Shown in pieces: positions 44,202 through 63,293 of a stretch of 64,000 nucleotides of DNA. The stretch spans positions 92,548-156,547 of the forward strand of contig CAWGQB010000027.1 in assembly GCA_963824565.1 (NCBI GenBank), written 5' to 3'. The first letter of the stretch is position 1, and each line of letters begins with the position of its first letter. Origin of the DNA: an uncultured Pseudomonadota bacterium (GTDB lineage: Bacteria; Desulfobacterota; Binatia; Binatales; Binataceae). A program made the position numbers and the translations under genes. Under the pieces are notes generated by a model, which saw nothing but the letters and a program-made list of their open reading frames with translations, was not told the DNA's origin and made no database searches.

Positions 44202-46043
44202 ATGCTCCGTCAAATAAATGATCTAAGAGTAAAGCTGCGCGGGGGGAAGAATGCTCCCGTCCACCCAGCCGTCGCCCTGGTGGCCAAGCTCGCACATCTT
44301 CCATTGCTGGAAAGCCTTGGCCCGCGGCTGTTGGAAGCAATCGCAACGGAATTCGACTGGTTTAGCCTGCCGGGAGGTCAGATTCTTTTTAACCATGGCG
44401 ACCGCGACAACTCTCTTTATGTAGTACTATCAGGACGGTTGGGGGCCTTTCTTCCCAATGACGAGGGTACGGAGATACTGATTCGGCAGATGGGTTCGGG
44501 CGAGACGGTGGGCGAGATGGCGTTGCTGTCGGGCGAACGGCGTTCCGCGACCGTACTTGCACTGCGCGACACGGAGCTTGCGCGCCTGTCAAAAAGCTCT
44601 TTTGAGAAGCTGATAGACCATCATCCCAAAGCGCTTCGCTTCATCACCGACCTGCTCGTTCAGCGCTTGCGAGAGCCCCCGCGGCTTGACGGTCCCAAGC
44701 TGGCTCCCCGGACCATCGCCATCTTTCCACTCGATCCCGAGCTGGCTTCCCCTGATTTCGCACGCTCTCTCGGCAAAGCGTTTGAAGAAATGGGGCTTAG
44801 GGCAGCCATTCTCGACCACAGTCGCGTGCAGCAGCCGATCGAGTGGTTCAACCAACTTGAAGAAGCCCATGACATAGTTTTGTATCAGGCCGATTTTGAA
44901 TCGTCGCCGTGGACCAGACTTTGCCTGCGCCAAGCTGATCGCCTGCTACTTTTGGCAGACGCCGCGCGGCCCCCATCGACCGCTTCATCCGCGATCGACA
45001 AAGTGATCAACAATCCGCGCAGGACTCCCGTGGAGCTGGTCATCCTCGAAAATGACCAATCCGCGCGTCCGCCTCAGACCACGTCTTTACTCACGGCGTT
45101 CACTGCAGTGATGCACCATCATGTCCGCCGGGGTGTGCCGCGCGACCTGCGACGCGTTGGCCGTCTGATCACCGGACGAGCCATCGGAATAGTGCTGTCG
45201 GGCGGTGGCGCGCGCGGCTTCGCACATATTGGCGTAATTCGCGCGCTCCGCGAAGCCGGGATCGAGTTGGATCTCTTCGGCGGATCCAGCATGGGCGCGA
45301 TCGTCGCCGCCGGCGCCGCGATGGATTGGGACGATCAGAGTCTGAGCGCGCACATGCGCGCCGCATTCTCCGACGCCAATCCCGTCAGTGACTATACCAT
45401 TCCAGTGATCGCGTTGGTGAGGGGACGCAAGGCCTCGCGCGCCTTCCGCGAACACTTTGGCGACCAACAAATAGAAGATACTCCCTATCCGTTCTTTTGT
45501 TTGTCGGTCAATCTTACAACTTCGCGCATCAAGGTGCATCGCACTGGTCCCTTATGGCTCGCCCTACGCGCGAGTACATCCATTCCTGGCGTGCTTCCCC
45601 CGGTGGTCGACGGAACGCAAATACTCATCGACGGGGGCATCATGAACAACCTGCCGATCGATGTAATGAGCGAAATGAAACGCGGGCCGATCATAGCCGT
45701 GGATGTTACACATGAATACGGCCTTGAGGCCACGATCGACAATATTGACCAACGCTCGATCTGGCAGCTTTTCGGCCACGCGCGCCACGGCACTCCCAAC
45801 ATACTTACGGTTTTGATGGCCGCCGGAACCGTGAGTAGCTCCGCTCAGGTTCGGACGCTACGCAACCGGGTCGACTTGCTAATCGAGCCGCAACTCGATG
45901 GGATCAGCATGCTTGATTGGAAGGCTTTCGATCGCACCATCGAAGCCGGGTACCGGCACACCATCGAAGCATTGGAAAAGCATGCGGGAACGCTGTTTCA
46001 GAAGCCGGGGCTGTCGCGGCCTACGGCGACTTTGAAGCGATAG
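44202..46043 (+). CDS. cyclic-nucleotide-binding domain + patatin-like phospholipase
   Basis: The CNB domain carries the phosphate-binding cassette GETVGEMALLSGERRSATVLA. The patatin part has GIVLSGGGARGFAHIGV (oxyanion hole), GGSSMGA (GxSxG) and DGGIMNNLP (catalytic Asp). ATG 44202 lies 22 nt after the RND stop. Confidence 0.9.
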   Translation: MLRQINDLRVKLRGGKNAPVHPAVALVAKLAHLPLLESLGPRLLEAIATEFDWFSLPGGQILFNHGDRDNSLYVVLSGRLGAFLPNDEGTEILIRQMGSGETVGEMALLSGERRSATVLALRDTELARLSKSSFEKLIDHHPKALRFITDLLVQRLREPPRLDGPKLAPRTIAIFPLDPELASPDFARSLGKAFEEMGLRAAILDHSRVQQPIEWFNQLEEAHDIVLYQADFESSPWTRLCLRQADRLLLLADAARPPSTASSAIDKVINNPRRTPVELVILENDQSARPPQTTSLLTAFTAVMHHHVRRGVPRDLRRVGRLITGRAIGIVLSGGGARGFAHIGVIRALREAGIELDLFGGSSMGAIVAAGAAMDWDDQSLSAHMRAAFSDANPVSDYTIPVIALVRGRKASRAFREHFGDQQIEDTPYPFFCLSVNLTTSRIKVHRTGPLWLALRASTSIPGVLPPVVDGTQILIDGGIMNNLPIDVMSEMKRGPIIAVDVTHEYGLEATIDNIDQRSIWQLFGHARHGTPNILTVLMAAGTVSSSAQVRTLRNRVDLLIEPQLDGISMLDWKAFDRTIEAGYRHTIEALEKHAGTLFQKPGLSRPTATLKR

Positions 46044-46114
46044 GATTGCGCCGAACGCCGTCGAGTCACACTATAAACAAAGGCGGCAATCCCCTCGCAA
46101 GATATAATAGGCAA

Positions 46115-47113
46115 ATGCAGAGTTCAGCTTCGGATAGTCATGATCTAAGCATCATGACCCATAATGTATATTTCGGCGCCGATCTTGAGCCAGTGTACGC
46201 TGCCAGGTCTCCGTCTGAATTGATCGAAGCGAGCCAGCATGTATGGACAGAGGTTCAGGCGAGCAATATCCCTGACCGGGCGGCACGGCTCGCGCACGAG
46301 ATCGCCATGGCCAAGCCCGATCTGGTCGGCCTACAGGAAATAGCTCAATGGTCTACGGGAAGGTTCGGTGCAATGTCCGTCAGATATGATTTCCTGGAAT
46401 CTATTCTTCGATCGCTGCGGGACGAGGGGTCCTTTTATGTGCCGATCGCGATCAAAGCGGACTCGACTCATGCCGAGCCAATGGATTCAGCCGGAAATCT
46501 GCTTCAGTTCACTGATCGCCACGCAGTTCTGCTGAGAATCGACCCCGATTTGGCGCGCGTCCAACCCTACAACGCCCAGGCTGAAACATTTTCGAGGCTC
46601 ATTCAAGTCTCGACCCCCGTGGCCGGATCGATAAGTGTCATGCGCAGTTGGATTGCGGTGGATGCGATTATCGGCGACAGCAAATTTCGCTTGATCGAAA
46701 CCCACGTCGAGTCGCTGGATGAAACGGTGCAGCTAGCGCAGGCACGGGAATTGGCTGCCGGACCCGCCAATACTACCCTGCCGGTGATCATGGTGGGAGA
46801 TTTCAACTCGAACGCGAACCGACAGCCTAGCGTTCGGGACTACACATCGGCCTACCCCGAACTGATTGCCGCAGGTTTCCACGACGTTTGGGCAATCGCG
46901 AATCCAGATCATCCCGGCAACACCTGCTGCCATGCGCGCGACCTGCTGAATTCCACCTCGGAACTGAACCGTAGGATAGATTTGTTGCTTATACGTGGCT
47001 CAATCATGCCAATCTCAGCGGCGTTGGTGGGAGACAATCCTGCCTTTCGTCTGAGCTCGGGGCGGTGGGCATCAGACCATGTCGGGGTGGTCGCGAAGCT
47101 GTGGATCCAGTGA
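46115..47113 (+). CDS. endonuclease/exonuclease/phosphatase (EEP) family protein
   Basis: ORF track 45917.., trimmed to ATG 46115. Motifs are MTHNVYFG, GLQEIA (catalytic Glu), VGDFNS and a C-terminal SDHVGV. TATAAT at 46103-08 lies 6 nt upstream of the ATG, so the mRNA may be leaderless. Confidence 0.8.
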   Translation: MQSSASDSHDLSIMTHNVYFGADLEPVYAARSPSELIEASQHVWTEVQASNIPDRAARLAHEIAMAKPDLVGLQEIAQWSTGRFGAMSVRYDFLESILRSLRDEGSFYVPIAIKADSTHAEPMDSAGNLLQFTDRHAVLLRIDPDLARVQPYNAQAETFSRLIQVSTPVAGSISVMRSWIAVDAIIGDSKFRLIETHVESLDETVQLAQARELAAGPANTTLPVIMVGDFNSNANRQPSVRDYTSAYPELIAAGFHDVWAIANPDHPGNTCCHARDLLNSTSELNRRIDLLLIRGSIMPISAALVGDNPAFRLSSGRWASDHVGVVAKLWIQ

Positions 47114-47342: not shown

Positions 47343-50300
47343 TTAGAGTCCGATCTGTTGTCCAACCAGGTGCGAATATAAACCGCCCATCTTAAGCAGA
47401 GACGCGTGAGTCCCCGCCTCCACCAGTGCGCCGCGGTCGATGACGAAAATTCGGTCCGCATTTTGCACCGTTGATAAGCGATGAGCAATGATAATGGTGC
47501 TGCGGCCGCGGCATGCTCCCTCCAGGTTCGCTTGGATCGCGCGTTCGGATTCAGTGTCAAGTGCGCTCGTCGCTTCGTCCAGAATCAGCAGGCTCGGATC
47601 GCGAAACAGCGCACGGGCGAGAGCAACTCGCTGACGCTGCCCGCCCGACAGGCTCATTCCACGCTCTCCCACCTTGGTGTCGTAACCCAGCGCCATGTCG
47701 TTCACAAAATCACTAACACCCGCGACTTGGGCCGCCGCGACTATCCGCTCGAACGGAGTGTCAGGATCGCCAAAGGCGATGTTCTCGCGGATTGTTCCGC
47801 TGAACAAAAAGACATCTTGCGGTACAACGCCGATCCTTCGGCGCAGATCGCGCCGTGAGAGCGTCCGGATGTCGTGCCCGTCAATAAATACTCTACCTTC
47901 CGATGGCAGGTACAGACCTACGATCAGTTTAGCCAACGTCGACTTTCCGGACCCGGACCGGCCCACGACGGCAATCTTTTCACCCGGGTTGATCTCGAAG
48001 GATACGTCGGCGAGCGTTGGCCGGTCCTGCCCCGGGGTATAACGAAACGAAACGCTTTCGAACCTGATGCTCCCTTCAACCCGAGGCAATGAGACAAGTG
48101 AACGGGATGGGCTTTCTTCCGGCGTCGCGTCAAAAATGTCGTTGAGCCGTTGAACCGCGTTTCTTACATCCTGCAGACTAGCCCATGAGTCGCTGAGCCG
48201 CAGCACCGGCTGAATCAGGTTCCCGGCAAGCGCGGTGAAAGCGATTAGCTCACCGACGGACATTTGGTTTTCCAGAACCTGGCGGGCTCCGTACCAAAGC
48301 ATCAGGACGGACGCCAAGGTTGAGAGGAAGCTCGCGCTGATCGAATACGCGGTCTCCAGGTGAGCTTCACGACGGCCAAGGATCGCGGAATCCACGAAAA
48401 GGTTCTCCCATTTCCACCGGACCGAGGTCTCGACAGCCATGGTTTTGATGGTCGCGATTCCGGTGATTGACTCGATTAGGTAGGACCATTGCTCCGCATT
48501 CTTTGCAAACCACTCCTTGCGGTTTTTCCGCACCGCCGGGGTAAAACCCAGCGTCAAGGAAACGAAAAACGGGATGAAAATCACAATTAGCAGTGTTAAT
48601 CGCAAATTGTAGTAGGCAAGGAAGCTCAGATAGCCCAGCGCCAGAAAGATGTCCAACACCAGTCCCGGAAGCGTTCCGACCATCGCCTCGCGAATCTTCT
48701 CATTCTCACCAACCCGGGAGACCACGTCGCCAACCCGGCGAAGGTCAAAAAAACGCATGGGCAGGCTCATCACATGGCGAAAGAAATCGGCTAGCAACCC
48801 AACATCGGCATGCGTAGCGATGTGGATCAAAAGCAAACGGCGAACGGCGGCGGTGGCGGTCTGCAGCACCACTACCAGGAGCATCCCGGCCAGCAAGGTA
48901 TCGAGCAGGTCCGCGGCATGCAGACCAACCACGCGATCAATTATTACCTGGGTGAACAGCGGCAACGCCAGGCCGAAAAGGTTAAGCAGAAGAGAAGCCA
49001 CCATCACTTCGGCCAGTATTGTCCGGAAGGGGATTAGCACCGCGCTGAATCGCGCATAGGAACCGCGAATTGGCCGATTGCTCCTGAGACGAATGGTGGG
49101 AATTAATTCGAGCGCGCGGCCGCTCCAACCTTTACGAAATTCGTCGGCTGGGAGCTTGCGGATGCCAATGCCCGGGTCACCGACAACTACATACTTTTTC
49201 TCGGCCTCGTAGAGAACGATATAATGGAAGCCTTCCCAGTGCACGATGGCGGGCGTGTTGATGTGCATGAGGGCGTCATAGGAGAGACGAAGACCTCGCG
49301 AGCGCAAACCGATCGCTTCCGCGGCCTGAGCCACGGACCACATGGATGCGCCGTCCTGGTCCGTGTTTGCCAGATCGCGCAATCGCGCGACACCTGCAGG
49401 TACACCGTAGTACGCCGTGATCATTGCCAGACACGCCGCGCCGCAATCGGTCTCGTCGTGTTGTGCCACGAACGGATAGGCCCTGAAGAATCGCCGCCAG
49501 TAAGGATTCGGGGAGGATAGGCGAACCTCGGCTTCATCCCCGGATGGGCGATCGTCCGAAGGAAACTGGATAGTATTCGGAGGAGACGGTTCCGGACGTG
49601 CGCCATGGAGGGTATAAGATGCCGCCACTTGTTCCAGACGGCGGCGGAACTCGGCAGATGCGTCGACAATTTTAGAGAAAGCCTCACGGGACAGGGAGTA
49701 CAGCTCAACGCCTGTCCGGGCGACAACGGTGGCAGTGCGTCGCCCATCGTTCAAGAGCGCCAGTTCGCCAAAGAATTCGCCGGGTCCGATAGAGTTCAGC
49801 AATCGCTCCGTGCCATCCTCGAGCTTGAAAACATCGAGCGTTCCCTGGCGCACAACATAGAATCGGTCTCCAGGATCGCCTTCGTGGAAAATGATCGTTC
49901 CGGCGGTGACCGATTGTTCTGCCAACTGCTCTAGTATTTCTCGCAGCAGCGGCGCCGGAACCGCGCCAAGCGCCGTGAAGCGCTTTAGAAAGTCGCGAAT
50001 CGTAAATTCCTTGAGATACCGTTCCAAAGCGATTCGCGCCTCGGGGTGATCAGCGACGAAGTCGTTGAAGTCCTTACGATCAAGCCGCAGCAGCACGAGA
50101 TCTTCCGCGGCTCGAACGGTCGAGCTGCGCGGCACGTCCAGGATCAGCGCAACTTCCCCGAAGTGATCGCCACGCTTTAATACGGCCAGCGAAACTTCCC
50201 GATTCGCGGAGTCCTTTCCAACTACGCGCGCCCGCCCCGAAGCCACCACAAAGAACGCATCTCCATCTTCTCCTTGTTCGAATACGGTATCGCCGGTCCG

Positions 50301-50529: not shown

Positions 50530-51264
50530 TTGAGCAGCGAAACAGACAGTTCGGCGCGGGTGGAATGGTTAAAGGCGGGGGGCACTGTGGTCACCGGCGC
50601 GGCAGTCCTGGTTGAGCTGAAGCTCGGGGCGAGCGCCCAACTGTTGGAGGATCTGACGCTTCGACGAGTTGCCAAAGCGATGGCCGAGCGGCGCAGCATT
50701 GTGCACTCCGAAGAGGAGTTAGACCAGGCGCTGGCCGCCTTTTACATGGAGCGTAATCTGCTTGACCACCAGCAAATTTCCGATTGGCGTCGATCGCTGC
50801 GCCTGGAGGAAGCAACGCTGCGCGAATACGTGGGTGAGACGGTACTGTTCAGGCGCTTGCGAGAGAGTCTGATCTCCGATCAGTCGGTGGAGAACCGTTT
50901 CAGGATGAACCCGCACGAGTATGCACGGGCAGAGGTTGCTATCTTCACTTTTTCGAGCGAAGGGGCAGGCAAGGAATTCGTTTTGGCGGTCCGTGAGAAG
51001 GAGATCGAGCCGATCCATGGCGCTCGGCAGTGGATGATTCGGCGGGAGACGCCGGACGAGGCGGCGGCGCTGATCTTCTCTGCGCAACCGGGAGACATCG
51101 TGGGACCCGCCGAGACGAATTACCAATGTTACGAGGTGTACCGGCTACTGCGCCGTGAAAGCGGAGTCCTGGATGCACGATTGAAGAAGCAGCTTCGCAA
51201 CGAACTGTTCGATGAACTCCTCAAGGCGGAACTCTCGCGCGACCCGATCAAGTTCCTCTTATAG
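50530..51264 (+). CDS. SurA-N/PpiC (parvulin)-like accessory protein; start uncertain
   Basis: 244-aa ORF. The layout resembles the PPIase-like proteins I recall next to HlyD/C39-ABC peptide exporters (helical N-terminal part ...EELDQALAAFYMERNL...SDWRRSLRLEEATLREYV..., then a degenerate parvulin-like part ...QPGDIVGPAETNYQCYEVYRL..). Confidence 0.45.
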   Translation: MSSETDSSARVEWLKAGGTVVTGAAVLVELKLGASAQLLEDLTLRRVAKAMAERRSIVHSEEELDQALAAFYMERNLLDHQQISDWRRSLRLEEATLREYVGETVLFRRLRESLISDQSVENRFRMNPHEYARAEVAIFTFSSEGAGKEFVLAVREKEIEPIHGARQWMIRRETPDEAAALIFSAQPGDIVGPAETNYQCYEVYRLLRRESGVLDARLKKQLRNELFDELLKAELSRDPIKFLL

Positions 51265-53407: not shown

Positions 53408-56400
53408 ATGGCACAATCAGGGACTGTAACACTGCTATTTACCGACCTGGTCAATTCGACCGATCAGTTGCAACAGGCGGGCGACGAAGCCGAGCGGTGG
53501 TTTCGAGTTCATCACAAGCTGATGACCGATGCGGTCACGGCCGGCGGCGGAGAGGAGCTGCAATGGCTGGGCGACGGGATGCTGGCGGCGTTCTCGTCGA
53601 TCGCCGACGCGGTGCGTTGCGCCATCAATGTGCAGCAGACCGCGCGCCGCCCGATGGCCGGCGCGCGTTTCGAGATTCGCATCGGCATTCATTTGGGCGA
53701 GGTCCTGCGCCGCGACGGCGGCTACTTCGGTATGCCGGTGGTCACCGCGCGCCGGCTGTGCGACCGTGCCGAGGCCGGGCAAATCCTGTGCAGCAAACTG
53801 ATCGCGGAGTTGCTGGCGGCGCGCCAGACTTTCAGCTTCCGCGATCTGGGCGAATTTAGCTTGAAAGGCCTCGCGGCGCCGGTGGGGATTTGCGAGGTAG
53901 TTTATCCGGCTAACGACCCCGCCGCGATGCTTAACCGGACCCCGTTCGTGGGCCGTGGCGGGCAACTGCAGCGGCTGTCAGCCAAGCTCGAAGAGGCCTG
54001 CAACGGCCGCGGCTCGATTGCGATGGTGCGCGGTGAACCGGGGATCGGCAAGACCCGGACGCTCGAAGAGTTCGCCGACCAGACCCGCCAACGCGGCGCG
54101 GTGGCGATTCGCGGCGCTTGTTACGACGGCGAATGGCAGGCGCCCTACGGCCCGTTCGCGGAAGCAATCATGGAGTATGCTCGCGATGCCAACCGCGCCG
54201 AGCTTGGCACCCTGCTGGGCAAGCGGGCGCCGATTCTCGCGCGCATCGCGCCGGCGCTGCACGAGTTGCTCGGCGACATCCCCGAACCGGTGCCGCTGGA
54301 CAAGGAAGAAGAACGCTTCCGCCTGTTCGACGCGGTCGCGCAGTTTTTGATCAGCGCCGCGCAGTATGCGCCGCTAGTGCTGATCCTCGACGACCTGCAC
54401 TGGGCGGACCGCGGCACGGTAGCGATGTTAAGCCATGTGGCGCATTTCGTTTCCGCCAATCCGATCGTGCTCATTGGCGCCTATCGCGACGCTGAAGTCG
54501 ACCGCAAGCATCATCTGGCGGGGGCTCTGGCCGGCATCAGCCGGCTGCACAATTTCGACAGCCTGGCGCTCAAAGGGCTCGAAGGTGAGGAGGTCGCGGA
54601 CTTGCTCGGGTTAATCGGCGACGGGCAGCCACCTGACGCCCTGGTCAAGGCGCTGGGGGGCGCCACCGAAGGCAACCCGCTGTTTCTGCGCGAGGTGTTG
54701 CTGCACTTGGTAGAAGAGGGAAAAATCCTGCGCGAAGGCCACGGCTGGATTTCCAAGTTCAGCGTCGACGAACTCGGTATCCCCGAAGGCGTGCGCCAGG
54801 TAGTCAGCCGGCGACTGCTGAGGCTGTCCGATGACGCCAACCGTCTGCTCGGGGTCGCTTCGGCGTTCAACGGCGCATTCTCGTTTGAGGTGGCAGCCTC
54901 GGCGGCGGGACTCCACGAGAACACCGCGCTCAGCGCGATTGACGAAGCCCTGGAGGCTCAGCTTTTACAGCCGGGGCCAAGCCCGGAGAGTTTCGACTTC
55001 ACCCACGCGATGATCCGGCACACACTCTATAATGATCTCCATCCGGCCCGCCGGGTGCGGCTGCATCGCAAGATCGCCGAAGAAATGGAGCGCGCCTGGG
55101 GCGAGCGCGCGGCGCATCACGCCGCGGAAGTGGCGTTTCAGTTCTGGCGCGGCGCCGCGGCGTCCTCGGGCACCGAGCGCGGCGTCGATTACGCACTGGC
55201 CGCGGCCGATAATTCCGAAGCCGCCTACGCGCATGACGAAGTGGCGGCGTTCCTGCGCATCGCCTTGGAGTTGCTCCCGGCCAACGACTCCAGACGCCCG
55301 CGTCTGCTCGCGCGTTTGGGCACCGCACTGATCTGGACGCTTGATGCCGACGACGGGGTCAAGGTCGCGCTCGAAGCGGGATCCATGATTGCCGCCACCG
55401 AGGGAGCCGATCCTGCGGCCGACTTCTTTGAAGCCACCGCGCGCGGAATGCTGCGCGCTGGCCTGATGCGTCACGCATGGGATTTGGCCCGGGAAGGCCT
55501 GCGCAACATCGGCAAGCGCCGTGACATTGTGTGGGCGAGCCTCGACGAGATCGATACGTATCGCGCTGATGCTGAAGATCCCGACAGCCCGGCCATAACT
55601 GTCGATTCCCAACGACTGCGCCAACGGCGCGCGGTACTCAAGCAAATGTCATCCGAGCGGGCCAAAGCCCGGAGAATTGACGAATATCCCTACGACTCAA
55701 GAGAGGAAATCATTCGCGACCCCAACTGCGACAATCTGGCGATGGTTTTTCTCGCCGGCGATTGCCGGCGCAGTCTGCCGTTGTGGCAGCAGCGCTCCGC
55801 CGACGCTGAGCGCTGCGGCCGGATTGCGTTGGCGATGGAGTCCTGGGCATACGTCGCCCGATGTCACAATGCGCTCGGCGATTTCATTGCCGCGCGGGCC
55901 GCGTATGATCGGTCGATCGCATTTGCCGCGCGCTTCAATCGCCCTTCGTTTCAACTCCTTAATCTCATGTCCGTTAGATATGATTTCCTCATAGCCCTTG
56001 ACCACGGCTGGGATGAAACCATCAGCGTTCCCGGAGCAGCGGAGCTGTTCAAAAATCCGCTCCCGGAATTGAAATGGGCCTATGCCGCCGCTTGCGCGAC
56101 CACGGCTCACACTCTGGCGTTACAGAACCGCGCCGATCAGGCGTTACAGGTGCTTAGCATCGTACCCGATGCGCTGCGTCGTGGAGCGCCCTTTGGACTG
56201 GTGTACAGCTTGACCGCCTGTGATGCCGCGTCGGTGCTGTGGCTACTCAATCGCACTGATCATATGGAGGTTATCGAGAGTAGCATCCGGGAGAAGGTTC
56301 TGGCCCCCGATTTCCGTTTTCCGATGCGCGACGGCCGGTTATCGATGGCGCGTCTGTCCGCGCTTGCGGGCCGCTACGATGAGGCGGCGGACTGGTTCGC

Positions 56401-56614
56401 CAAGGCGCGCGAGATCCTCGATGAGCAGGGTTGGCGGCCGCTGCGTGCAATCTGTGACTACGATGAAGCGGTAATGTATATACGGTGCGGCGCGGCAACG
56501 GGCATCTCAAACGCGCAGCCTCTGCTCGACGCGGCTGCGCGCCAATTCCAGTCCCTCGGCATGCCCGGCTGGATCAAGCGCGCCGAGCAAACCTCTGCCG
56601 CCATCCGCAATTAG
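53408..56614 (+). CDS. class III cyclase domain + AAA/STAND P-loop ATPase + TPR-like C-terminal region (1068 aa), paralog 1
   Basis: Cyclase blocks are VTLLFTDLVNST, ELQWLGDGMLAAF, FEIRIGIHLGEV and GGYFGMPVVTARRL. Walker A is GEPGIGKTR and Walker B is LVLILDDLHWAD. The long helical-repeat C-terminus has no LuxR-type HTH recognisable. Confidence 0.9.
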   Translation: MAQSGTVTLLFTDLVNSTDQLQQAGDEAERWFRVHHKLMTDAVTAGGGEELQWLGDGMLAAFSSIADAVRCAINVQQTARRPMAGARFEIRIGIHLGEVLRRDGGYFGMPVVTARRLCDRAEAGQILCSKLIAELLAARQTFSFRDLGEFSLKGLAAPVGICEVVYPANDPAAMLNRTPFVGRGGQLQRLSAKLEEACNGRGSIAMVRGEPGIGKTRTLEEFADQTRQRGAVAIRGACYDGEWQAPYGPFAEAIMEYARDANRAELGTLLGKRAPILARIAPALHELLGDIPEPVPLDKEEERFRLFDAVAQFLISAAQYAPLVLILDDLHWADRGTVAMLSHVAHFVSANPIVLIGAYRDAEVDRKHHLAGALAGISRLHNFDSLALKGLEGEEVADLLGLIGDGQPPDALVKALGGATEGNPLFLREVLLHLVEEGKILREGHGWISKFSVDELGIPEGVRQVVSRRLLRLSDDANRLLGVASAFNGAFSFEVAASAAGLHENTALSAIDEALEAQLLQPGPSPESFDFTHAMIRHTLYNDLHPARRVRLHRKIAEEMERAWGERAAHHAAEVAFQFWRGAAASSGTERGVDYALAAADNSEAAYAHDEVAAFLRIALELLPANDSRRPRLLARLGTALIWTLDADDGVKVALEAGSMIAATEGADPAADFFEATARGMLRAGLMRHAWDLAREGLRNIGKRRDIVWASLDEIDTYRADAEDPDSPAITVDSQRLRQRRAVLKQMSSERAKARRIDEYPYDSREEIIRDPNCDNLAMVFLAGDCRRSLPLWQQRSADAERCGRIALAMESWAYVARCHNALGDFIAARAAYDRSIAFAARFNRPSFQLLNLMSVRYDFLIALDHGWDETISVPGAAELFKNPLPELKWAYAAACATTAHTLALQNRADQALQVLSIVPDALRRGAPFGLVYSLTACDAASVLWLLNRTDHMEVIESSIREKVLAPDFRFPMRDGRLSMARLSALAGRYDEAADWFAKAREILDEQGWRPLRAICDYDEAVMYIRCGAATGISNAQPLLDAAARQFQSLGMPGWIKRAEQTSAAIRN

Positions 56615-56802
56615 CCAAGTCGGACTGCTCCCTTATGCGCGGTATGGCCTTTAGCGAACTGCATGAACGGGGGTACACGCCGCACCCTCGAGTTTTCTAA
56701 GAGACCCTAATGCCCTTTGCGCCGGCCAAACTGAGCTATCCAGAAACATTCAGCGTTCCCTCGGGATGCAAACGAGACCTACACAAACGATCTCTAGTTA
56801 GA

Positions 56803-56979
56803 AACAAGTTGACATAGACTTTTAACGCTTGTAGGTTCAAAATCATGCAGCGGCAGCACTTCGAGACCCCATATGGCAGCTTAAGAACCACACCGGCGTC
56901 TCCGCATTCCGTTCCGATTGGGATGGATCTCGGCGAGTAGCAGTTCGACAGAAATACCACCGTCTCCGAAGCGGAGGTA
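56803..56979 (+). promoter_or_regulatory. conserved promoter (TTGACA-17-TAGGTT) plus conserved leader hairpin; paralog of 38871..39040
   Basis: AAACAAGTTGACATAGACT...GCTTGTAGGTT has its -35 at 56809-14 and -10 at 56832-37. It carries ATATGGCAGC (56871-80) and AGAAATACCACCGTCTCCGAAGCGGAGG. The hairpin is TACCACCG (56955-62) paired with CGGAGGTA (56972-79), with one mismatch. Confidence 0.5.
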
Positions 56980-57137
56980 GAGCTATCTTTTGAAGGTTTC
57001 GATGCGACAATTGCGCAGCCTTGGACACCCCGGGTTGCGGGACCGGCGGGCAAAATCGCCGGCCGGCGCGCAAACGCGCGGCGTCGGAGGCTCGGAGGGC
57101 GCCGTCCTGATCGAGGTGGCGCGGCGGTAGGTCTGCG

Positions 57138-60100
57138 ATGGCGGAATCCGGAACCGTTACGCTGCTGCTCACCGATCTGGTCAATTCGAGCCTACTGTTG
57201 GAGCGCGCCGGCGACGAAGCCGGCCAGCGGTTGTTCCGTGCCCACCACAAGCTGATGACCGATGCGATCACCAGCAACGGCGGAGAGGAATTGCAATGGC
57301 TGGGAGACGGCGTGCTGGCGGCGTTTTCATCAACCGCCGACGCGGTGCGTTGCGCGATCATTATCCAGCAAACCGCACGGCGGCCCGTGGAGGGAGCGCG
57401 GTTCGAGATCCGCATCGGGGTCCATATCGGCGAGGCGTTGCGGCGCGAGGACGGCTACTTCGGCACACCTTTGGTGATGGTGCGCCGGCTGTGCGAGCGC
57501 GCCGCGGCCGGACAGATCCTTTGCAGCAGGCTGATCGCGCAGATATTGGCCTCGCGCCAGTCGTTCACGTTCCGCGCGCTTGATAACGTCGAACTCAAAG
57601 GTTTCGCGGCGCCAATCGCCATCAGCGAAGTCGTCTACCAGCGCAACGATCCGGCAGCACTGCTCAATCGCACTCCGTTCGTGGGCCGCTCAGAGCAACT
57701 CAAACGTCTGTCGGTTAAGCTTGAAGAGGCCTGCAACGGCCACGGGGCGGTTGCGATGCTTCAGGGCGAGCCCGGCATCGGCAAGACCCGCACCCTGGCC
57801 GAGTTTGCCGACATGGCCCGCCAACGCGGAGCGCTGGTGCTGCGCGGCGCTTGCTACGACGGTGAATGGCAACGGCCCTATGGTCCGTTCGCGGAAGCGA
57901 TCGTCGAATACACGCGGCATGCCCAACCCGCGCAACTCGCCGCTGCATTGGGCAAGAGCGCGTCAATTATCGCACGCATCGCGCCGGCGCTCCGCGAACG
58001 GCTGGGCGACATTCCGGAACCCACAGCGTTGGACAAGGACGAGGAGCGCTTCCGGCTGTTGGACGCGGTTTCACAGTTTCTCATCGCCATCGCCCAGCAC
58101 ACGCCCCTGGTATTGGTGCTCGACGATCTGCATTGGGCGGACCGCGGGACGACGGGACTGCTCGGCCACGTGGCGCATAGTGTTCCCGCGAATCCGATGC
58201 TGTTAATCGGCGCCTACCGCGACGCCGAGGTTGACCGGATGCACCCGCTCTCCAGAGCCGTCGTCACGATTCGAAGGCTGCCGAACTTTGAAATCATTTC
58301 GTTGAAGGGTCTCGGAGGCGAAGAGGTAGCTGAGTTGCTCGAGATCGTCGCCGACCACGACGCGCCCCAGGCTCTGGTCCAGACGCTCAGCGCGGAGACC
58401 GAAGGCAACCCGCTATTTATCCGCGAGGTGCTCTTGCACCTGCTGGAAGAGGGAAAGATTCTGCGTGACGGCCAGGGCTGGATATCGAAATTCGACGTAT
58501 CGGAGCTCGGTATCCCAGAGGGAGTACGCAGTGTAATCGGCAGGCGCCTGGAGAAGCTGTCCGCTGAAGCCAATCGCCTGTTGACGGTCGGGGCGTGCTT
58601 TAAAGGTTCGTTCTCTTTCGAAGTGGCTGCCGCTGTTGCCGAACTGGACGAAGACGTTGCACTCAACGCGGTCGACGAGGCACTCGATGTGCAACTGCTG
58701 CGTCCTGGCGCCAATGCTGAGAGCTTCGATTTCAACCATGCGCTCATCCGCCACACGCTTTACTCAGAGCTCAACCCCGCTCGCCGGGTACGGCTGCATC
58801 GCCGCATCGCGGAAGCGATGGAACGTACGTGGGGCGAGAAGGCGTCGGAACACGCTGCCGAAGTGGCCTACCAGTTCTGGCGCGGCGCCACCGCTTCCGG
58901 CACCGAACGCGGTGCGGACTACGCGATCGCGGCCGCGGACTATGCCGAAGCTGCCTATGCGCACGACGAGGTAGTCGCCTTTTTACGCATCGCCTTGGAA
59001 CTCCTGGCGCGAAACGACTCGCGCCGAACCCGGCTGCTCGCCCGCCTGGGGCTGGCCCTCACGTGGACACTTAACGAGGAAGAGGCGGTAAGGGTCGCCC
59101 ACGAAGCGGGTGACTTGATCGCACCTGCCGAGAGCCCTGCCGCAGCGGCAGACTACCTCAGGATCGCGGCGCGCGCGATGTATTCCGCGGGACTGTTGCG
59201 TGGCGCCTGGGAACTGGCCAAGGATGGGCTCCGTCATGCGGGTGACCGCCACGACGTCACCTGGGCCAGCCTTAACGAGATTGATTTGATGCGCCAGGGC
59301 GCCGAGGATCCCGCAAATCCGGGTATCCGTTCCGACACCCCGAACGAACGCGAACATCGTGCCATATTGAGGCAGCTGCCGCCCGAACAATTGCGCGCCG
59401 CCGGTCTGGATCGGCCATTTGATTCCAGGAATGAGATCCTGCAATCCAATGACCCCTCGCCAATTGCATTGTTGTTCCTTGCGGGCGAATACCGGCGCAG
59501 TCTGCCCATTTGGCAACGAGAGGCGGCCGAAGCAGAGCGCGCAGGCCGAATCATGTGGGCGATGCACGCGTGGGCCAGCGTGGCACGCTGCCATATCGCG
59601 CTTGGTGACCTGACTGTCGCGCAGGCAGCATGCGACCGTGCCGCGGTGTTGTCCGGACGTTCGGTCGGGTCATCGCCCTGGCTGCTGAACCTGCTCTCGG
59701 CGAGACACGACCGGCGCGTCATGCTCGATGAGGGATGGGAAGAAGTATTCAGCGATCCCTTAGTCCAAACCCTGATGCAGGAGCAGCGCGCGGAGAACAA
59801 ATGGGCAGCGGCGCCAGTCCATGCTGCATCGGCTTACCTGTTTAGCCGAATCAACCAGCCGGAGATGGCTGTGCAGCGGCTCGAATCGCTGACCGCCGCG
59901 CTCGAATACGGAGCCGGATGGGCCAATGTTTACAGCGGCATGGCCTGTGACGCAGCTGCGACGCTATGGTTTCTCAATCGTACGGACTCGATCGGCGTCA
60001 TTGAACGAAACCTCCGTGAAAAAGTCATTGCTCCCGACTTCCGCTATCCGATGCGCGACGGACGTCTCTCTCTCGCGCGTCTGTGCGCTCTCCAGGGGCG

Positions 60101-60338
60101 TTACGATGAAGCCTCGCAATGGTTCGCCGACGCGCGCGAAGTCCTCCACGAACAGGGGGCTCGCCCATTGCGCGCTATCACTGATTTCGATCAGGCCATC
60201 ATGTATCACCGTCGCGCCGGCCAGGGAGATATCGAACGTGCGGCTCCATTTTTGGAAGCCGCTTGCGAACAGTTCCGTCAGCTCGGCATGACGGGCTGGA
60301 TACGCCGCGCTGAGGCGGCTGCCAAAGCCGGTACGTGA
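57138..60338 (+). CDS. class III cyclase domain + AAA/STAND ATPase + TPR-like region (1066 aa), paralog 2
   Basis: Collinear with paralog 1 (roughly two-thirds identical by eye): VTLLLTDLVNSS, ELQWLGDGVLAAF, GYFGTPLVMVRRL, GEPGIGKTR and LVLVLDDLHWAD. Confidence 0.9.
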   Translation: MAESGTVTLLLTDLVNSSLLLERAGDEAGQRLFRAHHKLMTDAITSNGGEELQWLGDGVLAAFSSTADAVRCAIIIQQTARRPVEGARFEIRIGVHIGEALRREDGYFGTPLVMVRRLCERAAAGQILCSRLIAQILASRQSFTFRALDNVELKGFAAPIAISEVVYQRNDPAALLNRTPFVGRSEQLKRLSVKLEEACNGHGAVAMLQGEPGIGKTRTLAEFADMARQRGALVLRGACYDGEWQRPYGPFAEAIVEYTRHAQPAQLAAALGKSASIIARIAPALRERLGDIPEPTALDKDEERFRLLDAVSQFLIAIAQHTPLVLVLDDLHWADRGTTGLLGHVAHSVPANPMLLIGAYRDAEVDRMHPLSRAVVTIRRLPNFEIISLKGLGGEEVAELLEIVADHDAPQALVQTLSAETEGNPLFIREVLLHLLEEGKILRDGQGWISKFDVSELGIPEGVRSVIGRRLEKLSAEANRLLTVGACFKGSFSFEVAAAVAELDEDVALNAVDEALDVQLLRPGANAESFDFNHALIRHTLYSELNPARRVRLHRRIAEAMERTWGEKASEHAAEVAYQFWRGATASGTERGADYAIAAADYAEAAYAHDEVVAFLRIALELLARNDSRRTRLLARLGLALTWTLNEEEAVRVAHEAGDLIAPAESPAAAADYLRIAARAMYSAGLLRGAWELAKDGLRHAGDRHDVTWASLNEIDLMRQGAEDPANPGIRSDTPNEREHRAILRQLPPEQLRAAGLDRPFDSRNEILQSNDPSPIALLFLAGEYRRSLPIWQREAAEAERAGRIMWAMHAWASVARCHIALGDLTVAQAACDRAAVLSGRSVGSSPWLLNLLSARHDRRVMLDEGWEEVFSDPLVQTLMQEQRAENKWAAAPVHAASAYLFSRINQPEMAVQRLESLTAALEYGAGWANVYSGMACDAAATLWFLNRTDSIGVIERNLREKVIAPDFRYPMRDGRLSLARLCALQGRYDEASQWFADAREVLHEQGARPLRAITDFDQAIMYHRRAGQGDIERAAPFLEAACEQFRQLGMTGWIRRAEAAAKAGT

Positions 60339-63285: not shown

Positions 63286-63293
63286 TGTGCCTG

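What the first reader, a model, noticed from the sequence alone, without database searches (positions are those of the whole stretch)
44202..60338. Intact cyclic-nucleotide island: twin STAND cyclases + GG-leader peptide + cNMP-domain C39 exporter/HlyD + cNMP-patatin + EEP
SEEN:
- In 16 kb there are two class III cyclase domains (53408, 57138) and three cNMP-binding (CNB) domains, one on a patatin lipase (44202) and two on a C39-peptidase ABC exporter (47343-50408).
- All three CNB domains have plausible phosphate-binding cassettes (RSA / RSS / RTA).
- The same block holds a HlyD protein, a PPIase-like protein, an EEP enzyme and a 53-aa GG-leader peptide gene (52679).
- This block has no frame breaks, whereas most of the rest of the window is riddled with them.
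- The same promoter/leader element precedes both cyclase 2 and the RND-2 operon that runs into patatin/EEP.

ESTABLISHED:
- C39-ABC/HlyD pairs cleave and export GG-leader peptides, as ComAB does for the competence-stimulating peptide (CSP) and as bacteriocin exporters do.
- Cyclase plus cNMP-activated effector is the logic of Pycsar. Cyclic-oligonucleotide-activated patatin (CapV) is the logic of CBASS.
- TPR domains are common peptide receptors (RRNPP family), and STAND ATPases couple ligand sensing to effector oligomerisation.
- Each individual architecture (Rv0386-like cyclase-ATPase, CNB-patatin, CNB-C39-ABC) exists in databases but, to my knowledge, is functionally uncharacterised.

INFERENCE: this could be a circuit in which the TPR-STAND cyclases sense a signal, possibly the exported peptide or an invader. 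They would then make a cNMP that gates peptide export and switches on a phospholipase and EEP effector. That would make it either a peptide/cNMP quorum-type loop or an abortive-infection-like defence module. The link rests on adjacency only.
Basis: partly seen in the sequence, partly recalled or inferred. Interest (0 to 1): 0.85.

Follow-up and report, generated by a model that had tools for sequence, protein, structure and literature searches.

The report
Cyclic-nucleotide-gated peptide exporter with dedicated cyclases
This is an intact gene cluster from an uncultured soil bacterium (Binataceae): a peptide-cleaving export pump with cyclic-nucleotide sensor domains sits beside its small peptide substrate, two sensor-coupled cyclases and a cyclic-nucleotide-sensing lipase, a layout that recurs in relatives and suggests peptide secretion switched by a second messenger, not an antiviral system.

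Summary
Every stated domain is at the stated coordinates, the catalytic and ligand-binding motifs are intact, and the 53-aa GG-leader peptide belongs to a conserved family.

The conserved core is a HetC-like exporter (CNB-CNB-C39-ABC), a HlyD adaptor, a TIGR04500-like PpiC-related protein and hypervariable GG peptides. The 80 best genome loci, from many phyla, carry this exporter architecture.

A class III cyclase lies within 10 kb in 8 of 10 exporter-anchored Binataceae loci. Gene order is shuffled and cyclase types differ. Cyclases with four other sensor architectures abut the cassette in four other lineages.

The CNB-patatin (NTE type), the MFP-RND operon and the EEP enzyme recur with the same cyclase family only in Binataceae.

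Best reading: the STAND cyclases make a cNMP (possibly cGMP) that licenses peptide processing and export and also acts on the lipase.

The Pycsar/CBASS-like defence reading has no positive support. The peptide-sensing quorum loop is not excluded.

Verdict: a new variant of a known kind; only HetC has been characterised. The link rests on genomic context, and no biochemistry exists.

The parts
38853..39041 (+). Promoter (TTGACA, 17 nt, TAGGGT) plus a conserved 5' leader upstream of the MFP-RND-patatin-EEP operon. This is copy 1 of the shared element.
   Evidence: It is 67% identical to 56784-57000. The core motif has only two copies in the window, with 0 expected by chance. There is no Rfam match.
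39316..40527 (+). Membrane-fusion protein of RND-2. First gene of the operon that ends in patatin and EEP.
   Evidence: Pfam HlyD_D23 5.6e-24. Orthologues lie next to patatin and cyclase in L087, L088, L102, L108 and L113.
40529..44180 (+). RND-2 transporter, with one frame break near 43194-43210.
   Evidence: ACR_tran is split over two ORFs. tblastn with the intact 1217-aa L108 orthologue shows a switch from frame 2 to frame 3.
44202..46043 (+). NTE-type lipase: CNB domain, NTE P-loop-like domain and patatin domain.
   Evidence: Pfam. Motifs GGGARG, GSSMG, DGG and the cassette GE...RSA. NCBIfam best hit is RssA at 2e-32; CBASS_lipase scores only 25 bits against a cutoff of 200. Orthologues of 60-67% identity are in L087, L088, L102, L108 and L113.
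46115..47113 (+). EEP-family, Mg-dependent phosphodiesterase of unknown substrate. No CNB domain.
   Evidence: Pfam 5e-11. P0241 is 100% identical at 332 aa. AlphaFold pLDDT 92.7. The best fold match is TDP2, with a TM-score of 0.58-0.63 relative to the query and 18-19% identity. Homologues lie beside the cyclase in L087 and L102.
47343..50408 (-). Peptidase-containing ABC exporter with two N-terminal cyclic-nucleotide-binding domains (CNB-CNB-C39-TMD-NBD).
   Evidence: Pfam. Catalytic Q316, C322, H395, D411. Cassette residues E85/R94 and E215/R224. Across 87 homologues the two Arg are each conserved in 78/87 and C322 and H395 in 87/87. P0001 is 100% identical.
50530..51264 (+). PpiC/SurA-related accessory protein (TIGR04500-like). 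No signal peptide is evident by eye in the translation.
   Evidence: Rotamase_2 8.5e-5. TIGR04500 2.7e-14, 53 bits against a cutoff of 180. A homologue is found in 43 of 86 cassettes. TIGR04500 was the top NCBIfam hit for all eight PpiC-like proteins tested from other loci.
51319..52533 (-). HlyD-type periplasmic adaptor of the exporter.
   Evidence: HlyD_3 6.8e-18. type_I_hlyD 1.8e-38. A homologue is present in 70 of 86 loci.
52679..52840 (+). Precursor peptide: a 23-aa GG leader (…LSKKEMKNTKGG) followed by a 30-aa Cys-free core.
   Evidence: An AGGAGG ribosome-binding site is present. The leader is shared with peptides in L001, L007, L008, L106, L108, L109, L111, L112 and L113, and the cores are hypervariable.
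53174..53227 (+). Decayed second copy of the peptide gene, truncated after 17 codons, with a duplicated upstream region.
   Evidence: Alignment to 52540-52860 conserves the promoter region and the first 11 codons. Sequence read.
53408..56614 (+). Cyclase 1: class III cyclase domain, STAND NTPase (AAA_16) and a helical-repeat sensor.
   Evidence: Pfam. Ma1120 is the best PDB relative at 4.9e-23. AlphaFold and Foldseek place it with STAND-TPR proteins. Orthologues of 65-74% identity lie beside CNB genes in L001, L087, L108, L111, L112 and L113.
56784..57000 (+). Copy 2 of the shared promoter/leader element, upstream of cyclase 2.
57138..60338 (+). Cyclase 2: a paralogue of cyclase 1. They are 64% identical overall, 70-78% in the N-terminal 300 aa and 45-58% in the last 370 aa.
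   Evidence: Pfam, including weak TPR_12 and TPR_MalT hits. Regional identities.

Best explanation
The block is a second-messenger-controlled peptide secretion locus. It has three parts.

1. Export cassette. A HetC-like peptidase-containing ABC transporter carries two PKA/PKG-like cyclic-nucleotide-binding (CNB) domains in front of an active C39 protease. With it are a HlyD adaptor, a TIGR04500-like PpiC-related accessory protein and a GG-leader precursor. The precursor would be cut after G23 and exported as a 30-aa linear peptide.

2. Two paralogous cyclase-STAND-helical-repeat proteins. Inferred mechanism: a ligand bound by the C-terminal repeat sensor drives NTP-dependent oligomerisation of the STAND module. 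This brings the N-terminal class III cyclase domains into active dimers, which make a cNMP. The specificity residues are Gln/Glu plus Gly, so cGMP or a mixed product is plausible.

3. Receivers. The cNMP binds the tandem CNB domains of the exporter and licenses leader cleavage and export. It also binds the CNB domain of the NTE-type patatin lipase, which is encoded at the end of the neighbouring MFP-RND operon. In relatives a CNB-MaoC dehydratase takes this place.

Shown: domain content, intact catalytic and ligand-binding residues, membership of the peptide family, and conserved, rearranged gene neighbourhoods.

Inferred: the identity of the nucleotide, the direction of regulation (activation rather than inhibition), the ligand of the sensor and the role of the exported peptide.

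The EEP phosphodiesterase is only loosely attached, and its substrate is unknown.
For: Exporter family.
- All domains and motifs are present.
- Across 87 CNB-PCAT homologues from many phyla, the phosphate-binding Arg is kept in 78/87 in each CNB domain and the Glu in 81/87 and 78/87. The C39 residues Q, C and H are kept in 87/87.
- The tandem CNBs are most similar to PKG and PKA regulatory modules, at 1e-32 to 1e-27.
- The cassette partners are conserved: HlyD in 70/86 loci and the PpiC-like protein in 43/86.

Peptides.
- GG peptides with the leader (L/M)(S/T)xK(Q/E/A)MKxTKGG and hypervariable cores occur in 1-5 copies beside the cassette.

Cyclase linkage in Binataceae.
- A class III cyclase lies within 10 kb in 8 of 10 exporter-anchored loci: the window, L001, L007, L106, L108, L109, L111 and L112.
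- Its position varies: upstream and divergent, downstream, or on both sides.
- Its type varies: a STAND form of about 1070 aa, a 429-aa form and a CHASE2 form.
- One of the two exceptions, L002, has a truncated HlyD gene and a fragmented PpiC-like gene.
- A locus anchored on a cyclase orthologue (L113) leads back to the same island.

Cyclase linkage outside Binataceae.
- Four loci have a cyclase next to the cassette or within two genes of it, each with a different sensor: STAND-TPR in L019, in one operon with HlyD and the PpiC-like gene; CHASE2 in L023; dCache-HAMP in L074; histidine kinase plus REC-cyclase in L083, together with two CNB-patatins.

Cyclase 1 orthologues.
- Each one sits beside a CNB-domain gene: patatin, MaoC or the PCAT.

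Peptide-cyclase order.
- Peptide genes lie directly upstream of the cyclase, on the same strand, in the window, L108, L112 and L113.

Cyclase domain.
- The family keeps the two metal Asp (109 and 116 of 121 sequences) and the transition-state Arg (109/121), and shows strongly conserved non-canonical positions.
Against: - There is no biochemistry for any protein of this family.
- The only characterised CNB-PCAT, HetC, bound ppGpp (Kd about 59 uM), GTP and GDP, but not cAMP or cCMP. cGMP is not in the paper's list of tested ligands (PMC10986499).
- The cyclase domains lack the canonical transition-state Asn. They have Pro110 and Val112 where Ma1120 or the canonical enzymes have Asn, and Gln/Gly replace the Lys/Asp specificity pair. 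They could therefore be weak or inactive.
- The cyclase domain has low confidence in the AlphaFold model.
- The cyclase-STAND family is highly expanded in Binataceae, with 4051 hits and several per contig. Some adjacency is therefore expected by chance, and the Binataceae loci are not phylogenetically independent.
- 76 of the 86 surveyed loci are from outside Binataceae, and 72 of those 76 have no cyclase within 10 kb.
- Consensus promoter and terminator scans were no better than chance.
Confidence: 0.5

Rival explanations
1. Independent neighbours. The CNB-PCAT cassette, the RND-patatin-EEP operon and the cyclase-STAND genes are separate functions. Their proximity in Binataceae reflects inherited synteny and the high copy number of the cyclase family. 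The CNB domains respond to a global pool of cAMP or cGMP, or to another nucleotide such as ppGpp, as reported for HetC.
For: - HetC binds ppGpp, not cAMP or cCMP.
- 72 of 76 non-Binataceae cassettes have no cyclase within 10 kb.
- The cyclase family is hugely paralogous.
- The window itself holds a third, canonical small cyclase at 13287-14129.
- The cyclase active site is non-canonical.
Against: - Gene order is rearranged repeatedly while proximity is kept.
- In all four non-Binataceae cases the cyclase lies next to the cassette or within two genes of it, not scattered across the 10-kb flanks.
- Cyclases of five different sensor architectures have been recruited.
- The cassette that lost its cyclase (L002) has a truncated HlyD gene and a fragmented PpiC-like gene.
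Confidence: 0.25
2. Peptide/cNMP autoinduction loop (quorum or kin signalling). The exported hypervariable peptide, or the unexported precursor, is the ligand of the helical-repeat sensor of the STAND cyclase. Peptide level would then feed back through cNMP onto its own export and onto the lipase.
For: - Peptide genes are directly upstream of the cyclase on the same strand in the window, L108, L112 and L113.
- Peptide cores diverge strongly between loci whose exporters are 81-83% identical.
- The sensor end of the cyclase is its fastest-evolving part: 45-58% identity between the twins, against 70-78% at the N-terminus.
- TPR sensors bind peptides in RRNPP regulators (established knowledge).
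Against: - No peptide importer is encoded in the locus.
- Peptide and cyclase copy numbers do not track each other. L007 has 5 peptides and 1 cyclase; L111 has 2 peptides and 3 cyclases.
- In L007, L109, L111 and L106 the peptides lie downstream of the exporter, not with the cyclase.
- The closest fold matches are generic STAND-TPR proteins, not RRNPP receptors.
Confidence: 0.15
3. NLR-like, abortive-infection-type defence. The STAND-repeat cyclases detect an invader protein and make a cNMP. That cNMP activates the CNB-patatin to damage membranes, following Pycsar/CBASS/Avs logic.
For: - The layout of an effector domain, a STAND NTPase and a repeat sensor is that of Avs and NLR-like proteins. 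Avs3 is among the fold hits.
- The family shows paralogue expansion with fast-evolving sensor ends.
- A CNB-phospholipase is a neighbour.
- PADLOC gives domain-level hits to Pycsar CNB effectors.
Against: - PADLOC finds no system-level match, and cyclase 1 has no hit at all.
- There is no CD-NTase.
- The patatin is NTE/RssA-type and carries an NTE P-loop domain. It scores 25 bits against a cutoff of 200 for CBASS_lipase.
- The other CNB partners are a peptide exporter and a MaoC dehydratase, which are not suicide effectors.
- The locus is syntenic within one bacterial family rather than patchy. No adjacent integrase, phage or defence genes were seen.
Confidence: 0.08

Closest known systems
HetC of Nostoc sp. 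PCC 7120 (a peptidase-containing ABC transporter with an N-terminal cNMP-binding domain; PMC10986499)
   Same: It has the same architecture class: CNB domain, C39 protease, transmembrane domain and ATPase. In HetC the protease Cys, the ATPase and the CNB domain are all required for function.
   Different: - Pfam annotates one CNB domain in HetC; the window protein has two, both with the canonical Glu and Arg.
- The HetC N-terminal domain bound ppGpp, GTP and GDP, not cAMP or cCMP.
- According to the paper, no membrane-fusion gene and no identified substrate lie near hetC.
- Here the HlyD adaptor, the PpiC-like protein, GG peptides and cyclases are all adjacent.
- Sequence relatedness to HetC itself was not measured.
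ComA/ComB, PCAT1 and LahT (GG-leader peptide cleavage and export systems)
   Same: They share the C39 catalytic Gln, Cys, His and Asp, the ABC core and a leader consensus ending in GG. The C39 domain matches PCAT1, LahT and ComA at 1e-21 to 1e-15. An accessory adaptor is present.
   Different: - The window protein has about 300 extra N-terminal residues forming two CNB domains.
- It has a PpiC-related accessory protein.
- The cargo peptides are Ala/Ser/Thr/Pro-rich, Cys-free and hypervariable, and their function is unknown.
Mycobacterial class III cyclases Ma1120 and Rv0386, and STAND-TPR proteins (PH0952/6MFV, MalT/AfsR type)
   Same: Ma1120 is the closest solved cyclase, at 4.9e-23. Gln replaces the specificity Lys, as I recall for Rv0386 (own knowledge). 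The cyclase is followed by an AAA_16/STAND ATPase. The best fold match of the full-length model is the STAND-TPR protein 6MFV.
   Different: - No C-terminal DNA-binding domain was detected; the C-terminus is a helical-repeat sensor of about 480 aa.
- The canonical Asn is absent in the whole family.
- The genes are linked to genes for CNB-domain proteins.
Neuropathy target esterase family (PNPLA6/SWS, PNPLA7) and bacterial RssA-like patatins
   Same: The order CNB domain, NTE P-loop-like domain (PF24179, 2.7e-22) and patatin domain with GxSxG and DGG is shared. In SWS the CNB sites are needed for catalysis, according to the title of PMC12710771.
   Different: - The window protein has one CNB domain, whereas NTE has three by my recollection.
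- It is encoded at the end of an MFP-RND operon, next to cyclase genes.
- It has not been tested biochemically.
Pycsar and CBASS (cyclase plus nucleotide-activated effector defence systems)
   Same: The abstract logic is the same: a nucleotide cyclase next to effectors with nucleotide-sensing domains, one of them a phospholipase.
   Different: - The cyclase is a STAND-fused class III enzyme, not PycC or a CD-NTase.
- The patatin is not CapV-type.
- PADLOC matches are only at domain level.
- The genomic context is a conserved chromosomal neighbourhood with a secretion system.
NCBIfam TIGR04500 (PpiC_rel_mature), TIGR04510 (mod_pep_cyc), TIGR03903 (TOMM kinase/cyclase) and TIGR03896 (cyc_nuc_ocin)
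   Same: The names of these curated families show that annotators had already noticed PpiC-like proteins, cyclases and cNMP-binding proteins beside peptide maturation and bacteriocin-type export genes. The window proteins hit them as best or near-best matches.
   Different: All scores are far below the family cutoffs: 53 against 180, 33 against 400, 171 against 706 and 29 against 161. The window proteins are therefore relatives, not members. To my knowledge none of these families has been tested experimentally.

Membership tests
Peptidase-containing ABC transporter (PCAT/AMS) system | C39 domain with catalytic Cys and His (plus the oxyanion Gln and an Asp) | tested here: met
   Q316, C322, H395 and D411 are present. 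Pfam C39 7e-35. The residues are invariant in 86-87 of 87 homologues.
Peptidase-containing ABC transporter (PCAT/AMS) system | ABC exporter core: six-helix transmembrane domain plus an ATPase domain with Walker A, signature, Walker B and H-loop motifs | tested here: met
   ABC_membrane 2.6e-42 and ABC_tran 7.6e-38. The motifs GRSGSGKST, LSGGQ, LLILDE and AHRLS are present.
Peptidase-containing ABC transporter (PCAT/AMS) system | A cognate substrate with a double-glycine leader is encoded nearby | tested here: met
   52679-52840 encodes ...LSKKEMKNTKGG|AAIAV. Homologous leaders occur in 10 related loci. Cleavage itself is not testable here.
Peptidase-containing ABC transporter (PCAT/AMS) system | HlyD-type adaptor for export across a diderm envelope | tested here: met
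   51319-52533: HlyD_3 6.8e-18 and type_I_hlyD 1.8e-38. No outer-membrane factor gene is in the block.
HetC-type CNB-PCAT | A cNMP-binding-fold domain N-terminal to the C39 domain | tested here: met
   Two PF00027 stretches lie before the C39 domain.
HetC-type CNB-PCAT | Ligand of the N-terminal domain (ppGpp in HetC) | not testable with these tools
   Only sequence is available. The canonical Glu and Arg are present in both domains.
Class III nucleotidyl cyclase (catalytically competent) | Two metal-binding Asp residues | tested here: met
   D13 and D56 are present in both cyclases. They are conserved in 109 and 116 of 121 family members.
Class III nucleotidyl cyclase (catalytically competent) | Transition-state Asn and Arg | tested here: inconclusive
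   The Arg (R116) is present. The Asn is absent: Pro110 and Val112 stand at the Ma1120 and canonical positions, and this holds across the family.
Class III nucleotidyl cyclase (catalytically competent) | Substrate-specifying pair (Lys/Asp for ATP, Glu/Cys or Glu/Gly for GTP) | tested here: inconclusive
   The window cyclases have Gln52 and Gly105. In the family this position is Gln in 68, Glu in 42 and Lys in 8 sequences, and position 105 is Gly in 112. The product cannot be assigned.
STAND NTPase with repeat sensor | P-loop NTPase of the STAND/AAA_16 type followed by a helical-repeat (TPR-like) domain | tested here: met
   AAA_16 2.3e-28. Motifs GEPGIGKT and LILDDLHWAD. The AlphaFold model is helical over 589-1067. 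Foldseek top hits are 6MFV, Avs3 and Apaf-1.
Pycsar | A PycC cyclase and a CNB-effector pair recognised by defence-system models | tested here: not met
   In PADLOC, cyclase 1 has no hit and cyclase 2 hits PycC only at 9e-7 to 5e-4 over about 75 residues. The CNB hits are generic. The nucleotide product is not testable.
CBASS | CD-NTase plus a CapV-type patatin effector | tested here: not met
   No CD-NTase hit. CBASS_lipase scores 25.4 bits against a cutoff of 200. The patatin carries an NTE_Ploop domain.
NTE/PNPLA6-type patatin | CNB domain(s), an NTE P-loop-like domain and a patatin domain with a Ser-Asp dyad | tested here: met
   PF00027 3.6e-22, PF24179 2.7e-22 and PF01734 4.3e-32. Motifs GSSMG and DGG.
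TIGR04500 / TIGR04510 peptide maturation system | Score above the curated NCBIfam cutoff | tested here: not met
   The PpiC-like protein scores 53 bits against 180. Cyclase 2 scores 33.5 bits against 400. PpiC-like proteins of other cassettes score 27-130 bits against 180.

The most novel reading that the evidence does not exclude
The locus is a previously undescribed kind of peptide signalling circuit in diderm bacteria. Strain-specific linear GG peptides would be the ligands of cytoplasmic STAND-repeat receptors. The output of those receptors would be a cyclic nucleotide, probably cGMP, rather than transcription. That nucleotide would gate the peptide's own exporter and an NTE-type lipase. 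This would be a quorum or kin-recognition loop with a second-messenger relay.
Probability: 0.15. Interest if true: 0.85.

Novelty: new variant of a known kind. Interest (0 to 1): 0.58.

Why it matters
Peptidase-containing ABC exporters are the standard route for bacteriocins and peptide pheromones. How their activity is switched on after translation is largely unknown.

- Scale. The form carrying cyclic-nucleotide-binding domains is widespread in soil phyla. The scan matched 589 genome stretches, and the 80 loci examined all carry the full architecture. Only HetC has been studied, and its physiological ligand and substrate remain unsettled.
- What this locus offers. In Binataceae the exporter, its peptides, candidate nucleotide-producing enzymes and a second CNB-regulated enzyme lie together. 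That gives a concrete, testable system for asking whether a cNMP gates peptide secretion.
- A lead for HetC. The HetC N-terminal domain bound guanine nucleotides, and cGMP is not among the ligands listed in that paper. The guanylyl-cyclase-like specificity residues found here suggest testing cGMP.
- Other uses. The locus is a bacterial model for cNMP control of NTE-type lipases. It also extends the known outputs of STAND sensors to second-messenger synthesis.

Tried and rejected
- Retrieving the window's own contig through its proteins failed. The organism is therefore inferred only from relatives named Candidatus Binataceae.
- A GC3 frame plot meant to count frame breaks was too noisy. It switches phase inside intact genes and was abandoned in favour of Pfam profile coordinates.
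- Consensus promoter and terminator scans of 52.4-57.2 kb gave no more sites than shuffled sequence. No operon boundaries are claimed from them.
- Rfam found no known RNA in the shared leader. The leader core is absent from all 86 loci fetched up to that point, so its conservation could not be tested.
- The idea that cyclase 2 belongs to the RND/patatin module and cyclase 1 to the exporter module was rejected. The patatin-adjacent cyclase of L087 is closest to cyclase 1 (74%), and cyclase 2 has no close orthologue.
- I suspected a CHASE2 cyclase just beyond the right end of the window, because the FecR + 259-aa pair resembles that of L106. In L106 the cyclase lies on the other side of the pair, so this was dropped.
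- The 256-aa gene between the exporter and patatin in L108 and the 331-aa gene in L113 are not EEP homologues.
- A weak hit to my cyclase HMM in L012 turned out to be an HD-GAF-GGDEF protein.
- Literature searches for the TIGR families and for NHLP plus cyclase returned nothing relevant. The main text of PMC2447327 is not held, so statements about Rv0386 rest on my own knowledge.
- The EEP fold search did not identify a substrate class beyond TDP2-like phosphodiesterase.

Full report
**1. What is in the sequence**

- 44202-46043 (+): CNB domain, NTE P-loop-like domain and patatin domain.
- 46115-47113 (+): an EEP enzyme. A 100% identical 332-aa public protein fixes the start at the ATG.
- 47343-50408 (-): a 1021-aa protein with two CNB domains, a C39 peptidase, an ABC transmembrane domain and an ATPase domain.
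- 50530-51264 (+): a weak PpiC/SurA-like protein.
- 51319-52533 (-): a HlyD adaptor.
- 52679-52840 (+): a 53-aa peptide with a strong ribosome-binding site.
- 53408-56614 and 57138-60338 (+): two proteins of about 1067 aa, each with an N-terminal class III cyclase domain and an AAA_16 NTPase.

The translations show the functional residues.
- Both the Glu and the Arg of the phosphate-binding cassette are present in all three CNB domains.
- The C39 Gln, Cys, His and Asp are present.
- The patatin oxyanion loop, GxSxG and DGG motifs are present.
- All ABC and STAND nucleotide-binding motifs are present.

An AlphaFold model of cyclase 1 shows that residues 589-1067 form a confident all-helical repeat. 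Foldseek places the protein with STAND-TPR proteins: 6MFV, Avs3 and Apaf-1. The cyclase domain itself is modelled poorly.

The EEP protein models at pLDDT 92.7. It is a generic EEP fold closest to TDP2, so its substrate remains unknown.

**2.

*Shared promoter/leader.* The element is real and extends over about 190-220 nt. The stretch 38853-39041 is 67% identical to 56784-57000, against 43-48% in the flanking aligned stretches. The core is TTGACA, then 17 nt, then TAGG(G/T)T. It has no Rfam match and was not found in related loci.

*Frame breaks outside the block.* These are real.
- RND-1 is split into at least three pieces.
- An ABC ATPase is split at about 21.0-21.4 kb.
- There are aldehyde dehydrogenase and transposase fragments.
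- RND-2, the gene just upstream of the patatin, has one break near 43.2 kb. Its orthologues are intact at 1217-1224 aa.

*Intactness of the block.* Every gene has the length of its orthologues. The only decayed element is a duplicated peptide gene truncated after 17 codons, at 53174-53227. I cannot tell whether the breaks elsewhere are pseudogenes or assembly errors.

**3. Organism and family sizes**

The closest relatives of the exporter, the cyclases and the EEP protein are annotated as Candidatus Binataceae metagenome-assembled genomes.

The exporter architecture is common. Nearly all of the 120 best protein hits carry PF00027. A scan of one genome per species matched 589 stretches, and the 80 best loci all cover the CNB-CNB-C39 region. 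These loci come from Verrucomicrobiota, Acidobacteriota, Latescibacterota, Armatimonadota, Planctomycetota, Gemmatimonadota, Actinomycetota and other phyla.

The cyclase-STAND family is strongly expanded in Binataceae. There are 4051 hits, and several contigs carry two.

**4. What is conserved with what**

I searched the window proteins against six-frame ORFs of 86 exporter loci.

| Window protein | Loci with a homologue (of 86) |
|---|---|
| HlyD | 70 |
| PpiC-like | 43 |
| Patatin | 1 |
| EEP | 0 |

For the eight PpiC-like proteins tested from other loci, TIGR04500 was always the top NCBIfam hit, and always below its cutoff.

A regular-expression search, followed by reading the small genes called in the loci, uncovered a peptide family.
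- The leader is (L/M)(S/T)xK(Q/E/A)MKxTKGG.
- Cores are 18-52 aa, rich in Ala, Ser, Thr, Pro and Val, and Cys-free.
- There are one to five copies per locus.
- Cores differ almost completely even between loci whose exporters are 81-83% identical (window, L112, L113).
- No modification enzymes are nearby.

The widely conserved unit is therefore the CNB-PCAT, HlyD, the PpiC-like protein and linear GG peptides. Across 87 homologues the cassette Arg is kept in 78 in each CNB domain, and the C39 triad is essentially invariant.

**5. The cyclase link**

*In Binataceae.* Of ten exporter-anchored loci, eight have a class III cyclase within 10 kb.

| Locus | Cyclase arrangement |
|---|---|
| Window, L108, L112 | STAND cyclase(s) on the opposite strand to HlyD, directly downstream of the peptide gene(s) |
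| L001 | STAND cyclase downstream of the exporter, separated from it by a CNB-MaoC dehydratase |
| L111 | Three STAND cyclases on both sides, plus a CNB-MaoC |
| L007 | STAND cyclase between an RND gene and HlyD |
| L109 | A 429-aa cyclase directly upstream of HlyD |
| L106 | A CHASE2 cyclase 7 kb away |

The two exceptions are L008 and L002. In L002 the HlyD gene is truncated and the PpiC-like gene is fragmented. Anchoring on a cyclase orthologue (P0125) led back to the same island in L113.

*Outside Binataceae.* A more sensitive cyclase HMM plus Pfam found four further cases. In each the cyclase lies next to the cassette or within two genes of it.
- L019: a 29%-identical cyclase-STAND-TPR, in one operon with HlyD and the PpiC-like gene.
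- L023: a CHASE2 cyclase 0.4 kb upstream.
- L074: a dCache-HAMP cyclase in the divergent operon.
- L083: a histidine kinase plus REC-cyclase pair, together with two CNB-patatin genes, one of them fused to an MFS transporter.

So cyclases with different sensors have been recruited repeatedly, and they sit close to the cassette rather than scattered across the flanks. Gene order in Binataceae is also shuffled while proximity is kept. Together these are the main arguments that the CNB domains of these exporters listen to a class III cyclase product.

The caveats are three: the high copy number of the cyclase family, the relatedness of the Binataceae loci, and the 72 of 76 non-Binataceae loci that have no neighbouring cyclase.

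**6. Patatin, RND and EEP**

A metagenome scan with the patatin, followed by the same search panel, gave three close relatives.
- L087: RND and MFP in the divergent direction, then patatin, cyclase-STAND and EEP.
- L102: patatin, MFP, RND, cyclase-STAND and EEP.
- L088: MFP, RND, patatin and exporter.

L108 and L113 repeat the window order but lack the EEP gene. Patatin homologues at 33-47% identity show none of these neighbours.

EEP homologues share contigs with cyclase homologues in five further cases, judged by matching contig lengths.

The orthologues of cyclase 1 (65-74% identity) always lie beside a gene for a CNB protein: patatin, MaoC or the exporter. Cyclase 2 has no close orthologue. 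The twins differ most in the last 370 residues, at 45-58% identity.

**7. Are the cyclases active?**

The best solved relative is Ma1120. In an alignment of 121 family members:
- the two metal Asp and the transition-state Arg are conserved;
- the specificity Lys is Gln in 68, Glu in 42 and Lys in 8 sequences;
- the specificity Asp is Gly in 112;
- the Asn is replaced by conserved Pro and Val.

Strong conservation argues for a functional site. Glu or Gln with Gly resembles guanylyl-cyclase determinants (own knowledge). Activity and product remain open.

**8. Comparison with known systems**

*HetC.* The nearest characterised protein is HetC of Nostoc (PMC10986499). Its protease, ATPase and cNMP-fold domain are all needed for heterocyst maturation. 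Its N-terminal domain bound ppGpp (59 uM), GTP and GDP, but not cAMP or cCMP. cGMP is not among the ligands the paper lists. The paper reports no adaptor gene and no identified substrate near hetC.

*ComAB, PCAT1 and LahT.* The export chemistry follows these systems.

*NTE family.* The patatin is NTE/PNPLA6-type.

*Pycsar and CBASS.* Membership fails on the tested criteria.

*Curated NCBIfam families.* TIGR04500, TIGR04510, TIGR03903 and TIGR03896 show that annotators had already noticed similar associations. The window proteins score far below those cutoffs.

**9. Verdict**

The most likely mechanism is cNMP licensing of peptide processing and export by sensor-coupled cyclases, with an NTE-type lipase as a second receiver (confidence about 0.5).

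Alternatives:
- independent neighbours, or a non-cNMP ligand (0.25);
- a peptide-sensing autoinduction loop (0.15);
- NLR-like defence (0.08).

This is a new variant of a known kind. Its interest is moderate to high, because it offers a tractable handle on how CNB-bearing peptide exporters are regulated.

Noticed in passing
window 13287-14129 (+): This is a complete 280-aa class III cyclase with all canonical residues: FADIRGST, KLIGDE and GDTVNTAARL. Its N-terminal region is Cys-rich (CKLCHNPF...CARCC). It lies next to a transposase fragment at 12251-12931. It is a third cyclase in the window, outside the reported block.
   Followed up: partly
window 6360-9820 (-), 20654-21596 (+), 11478-12050 (+), 40529-44180 (+): Several genes are split or truncated: RND-1 in at least three pieces, an ABC ATPase in two frames, an aldehyde dehydrogenase fragment, and RND-2 with one frameshift near 43194-43210. 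Pseudogenes and assembly errors cannot be told apart without the reads.
   Followed up: partly
window 38853-39041 and 56784-57000 (+): The two stretches share a promoter plus a leader of about 150 nt, at 67% identity, with possible hairpins (for example ATTCCGAT...ATCGGAAT). There is no Rfam family, and the element was not found in the 86 related loci searched. It could be a regulatory leader or an operator shared by the RND operon and cyclase 2.
   Followed up: partly
L083 129-9966 (Solirubrobacterales MAG): This locus has an MFS-CNB-patatin fusion (1110 aa), a second CNB-patatin, a MASE1-PAS histidine kinase and a REC-cyclase, all directly beside a CNB-PCAT. It is an independent assembly, in an actinobacterium, of the same parts seen in the window.
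   Followed up: partly
L001 13088-14497 (-); L111 4594-5973 (-): A protein combining a CNB domain with a MaoC-like dehydratase lies between the exporter cassette and the cyclase 1 orthologue. This architecture suggests cNMP control of fatty-acid or acyl-CoA metabolism.
   Followed up: no
L007 7389-7907 (+); L087 about 931 (-): Truncated cyclase-domain ORFs lie next to full-length STAND cyclases. Together with the twin cyclases seen on short contigs, they point to frequent tandem duplication and decay in this family.
   Followed up: no
window 62506-63989 (-); L106 2972-4454 (-): A FecR-domain protein and a protein of about 258 aa form a conserved pair (33-37% identity between the two loci). In L106 the pair abuts a CHASE2 cyclase. 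In the window it abuts an acyl-CoA dehydrogenase.
   Followed up: partly
L007 15714-20746; L109 14206-23075: Downstream of the exporter and peptides, two Binataceae loci share an MFS transporter, a WYL-domain regulator and a very large GH94 glycosyl hydrolase/phosphorylase. The window has an MFS gene at 37455-38741 (-) upstream of the RND operon.
   Followed up: no
window 5605-5690 (-): A tRNA gene. It is the only Rfam match in the window (63 bits).
   Followed up: no
L002 8325-9809: L002 is one of the two Binataceae exporter loci without a nearby cyclase. Its HlyD gene is truncated (243 aa), its PpiC-like gene is fragmented, and my leader search found no GG peptide. The cassette appears to be decaying.
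   Followed up: partly
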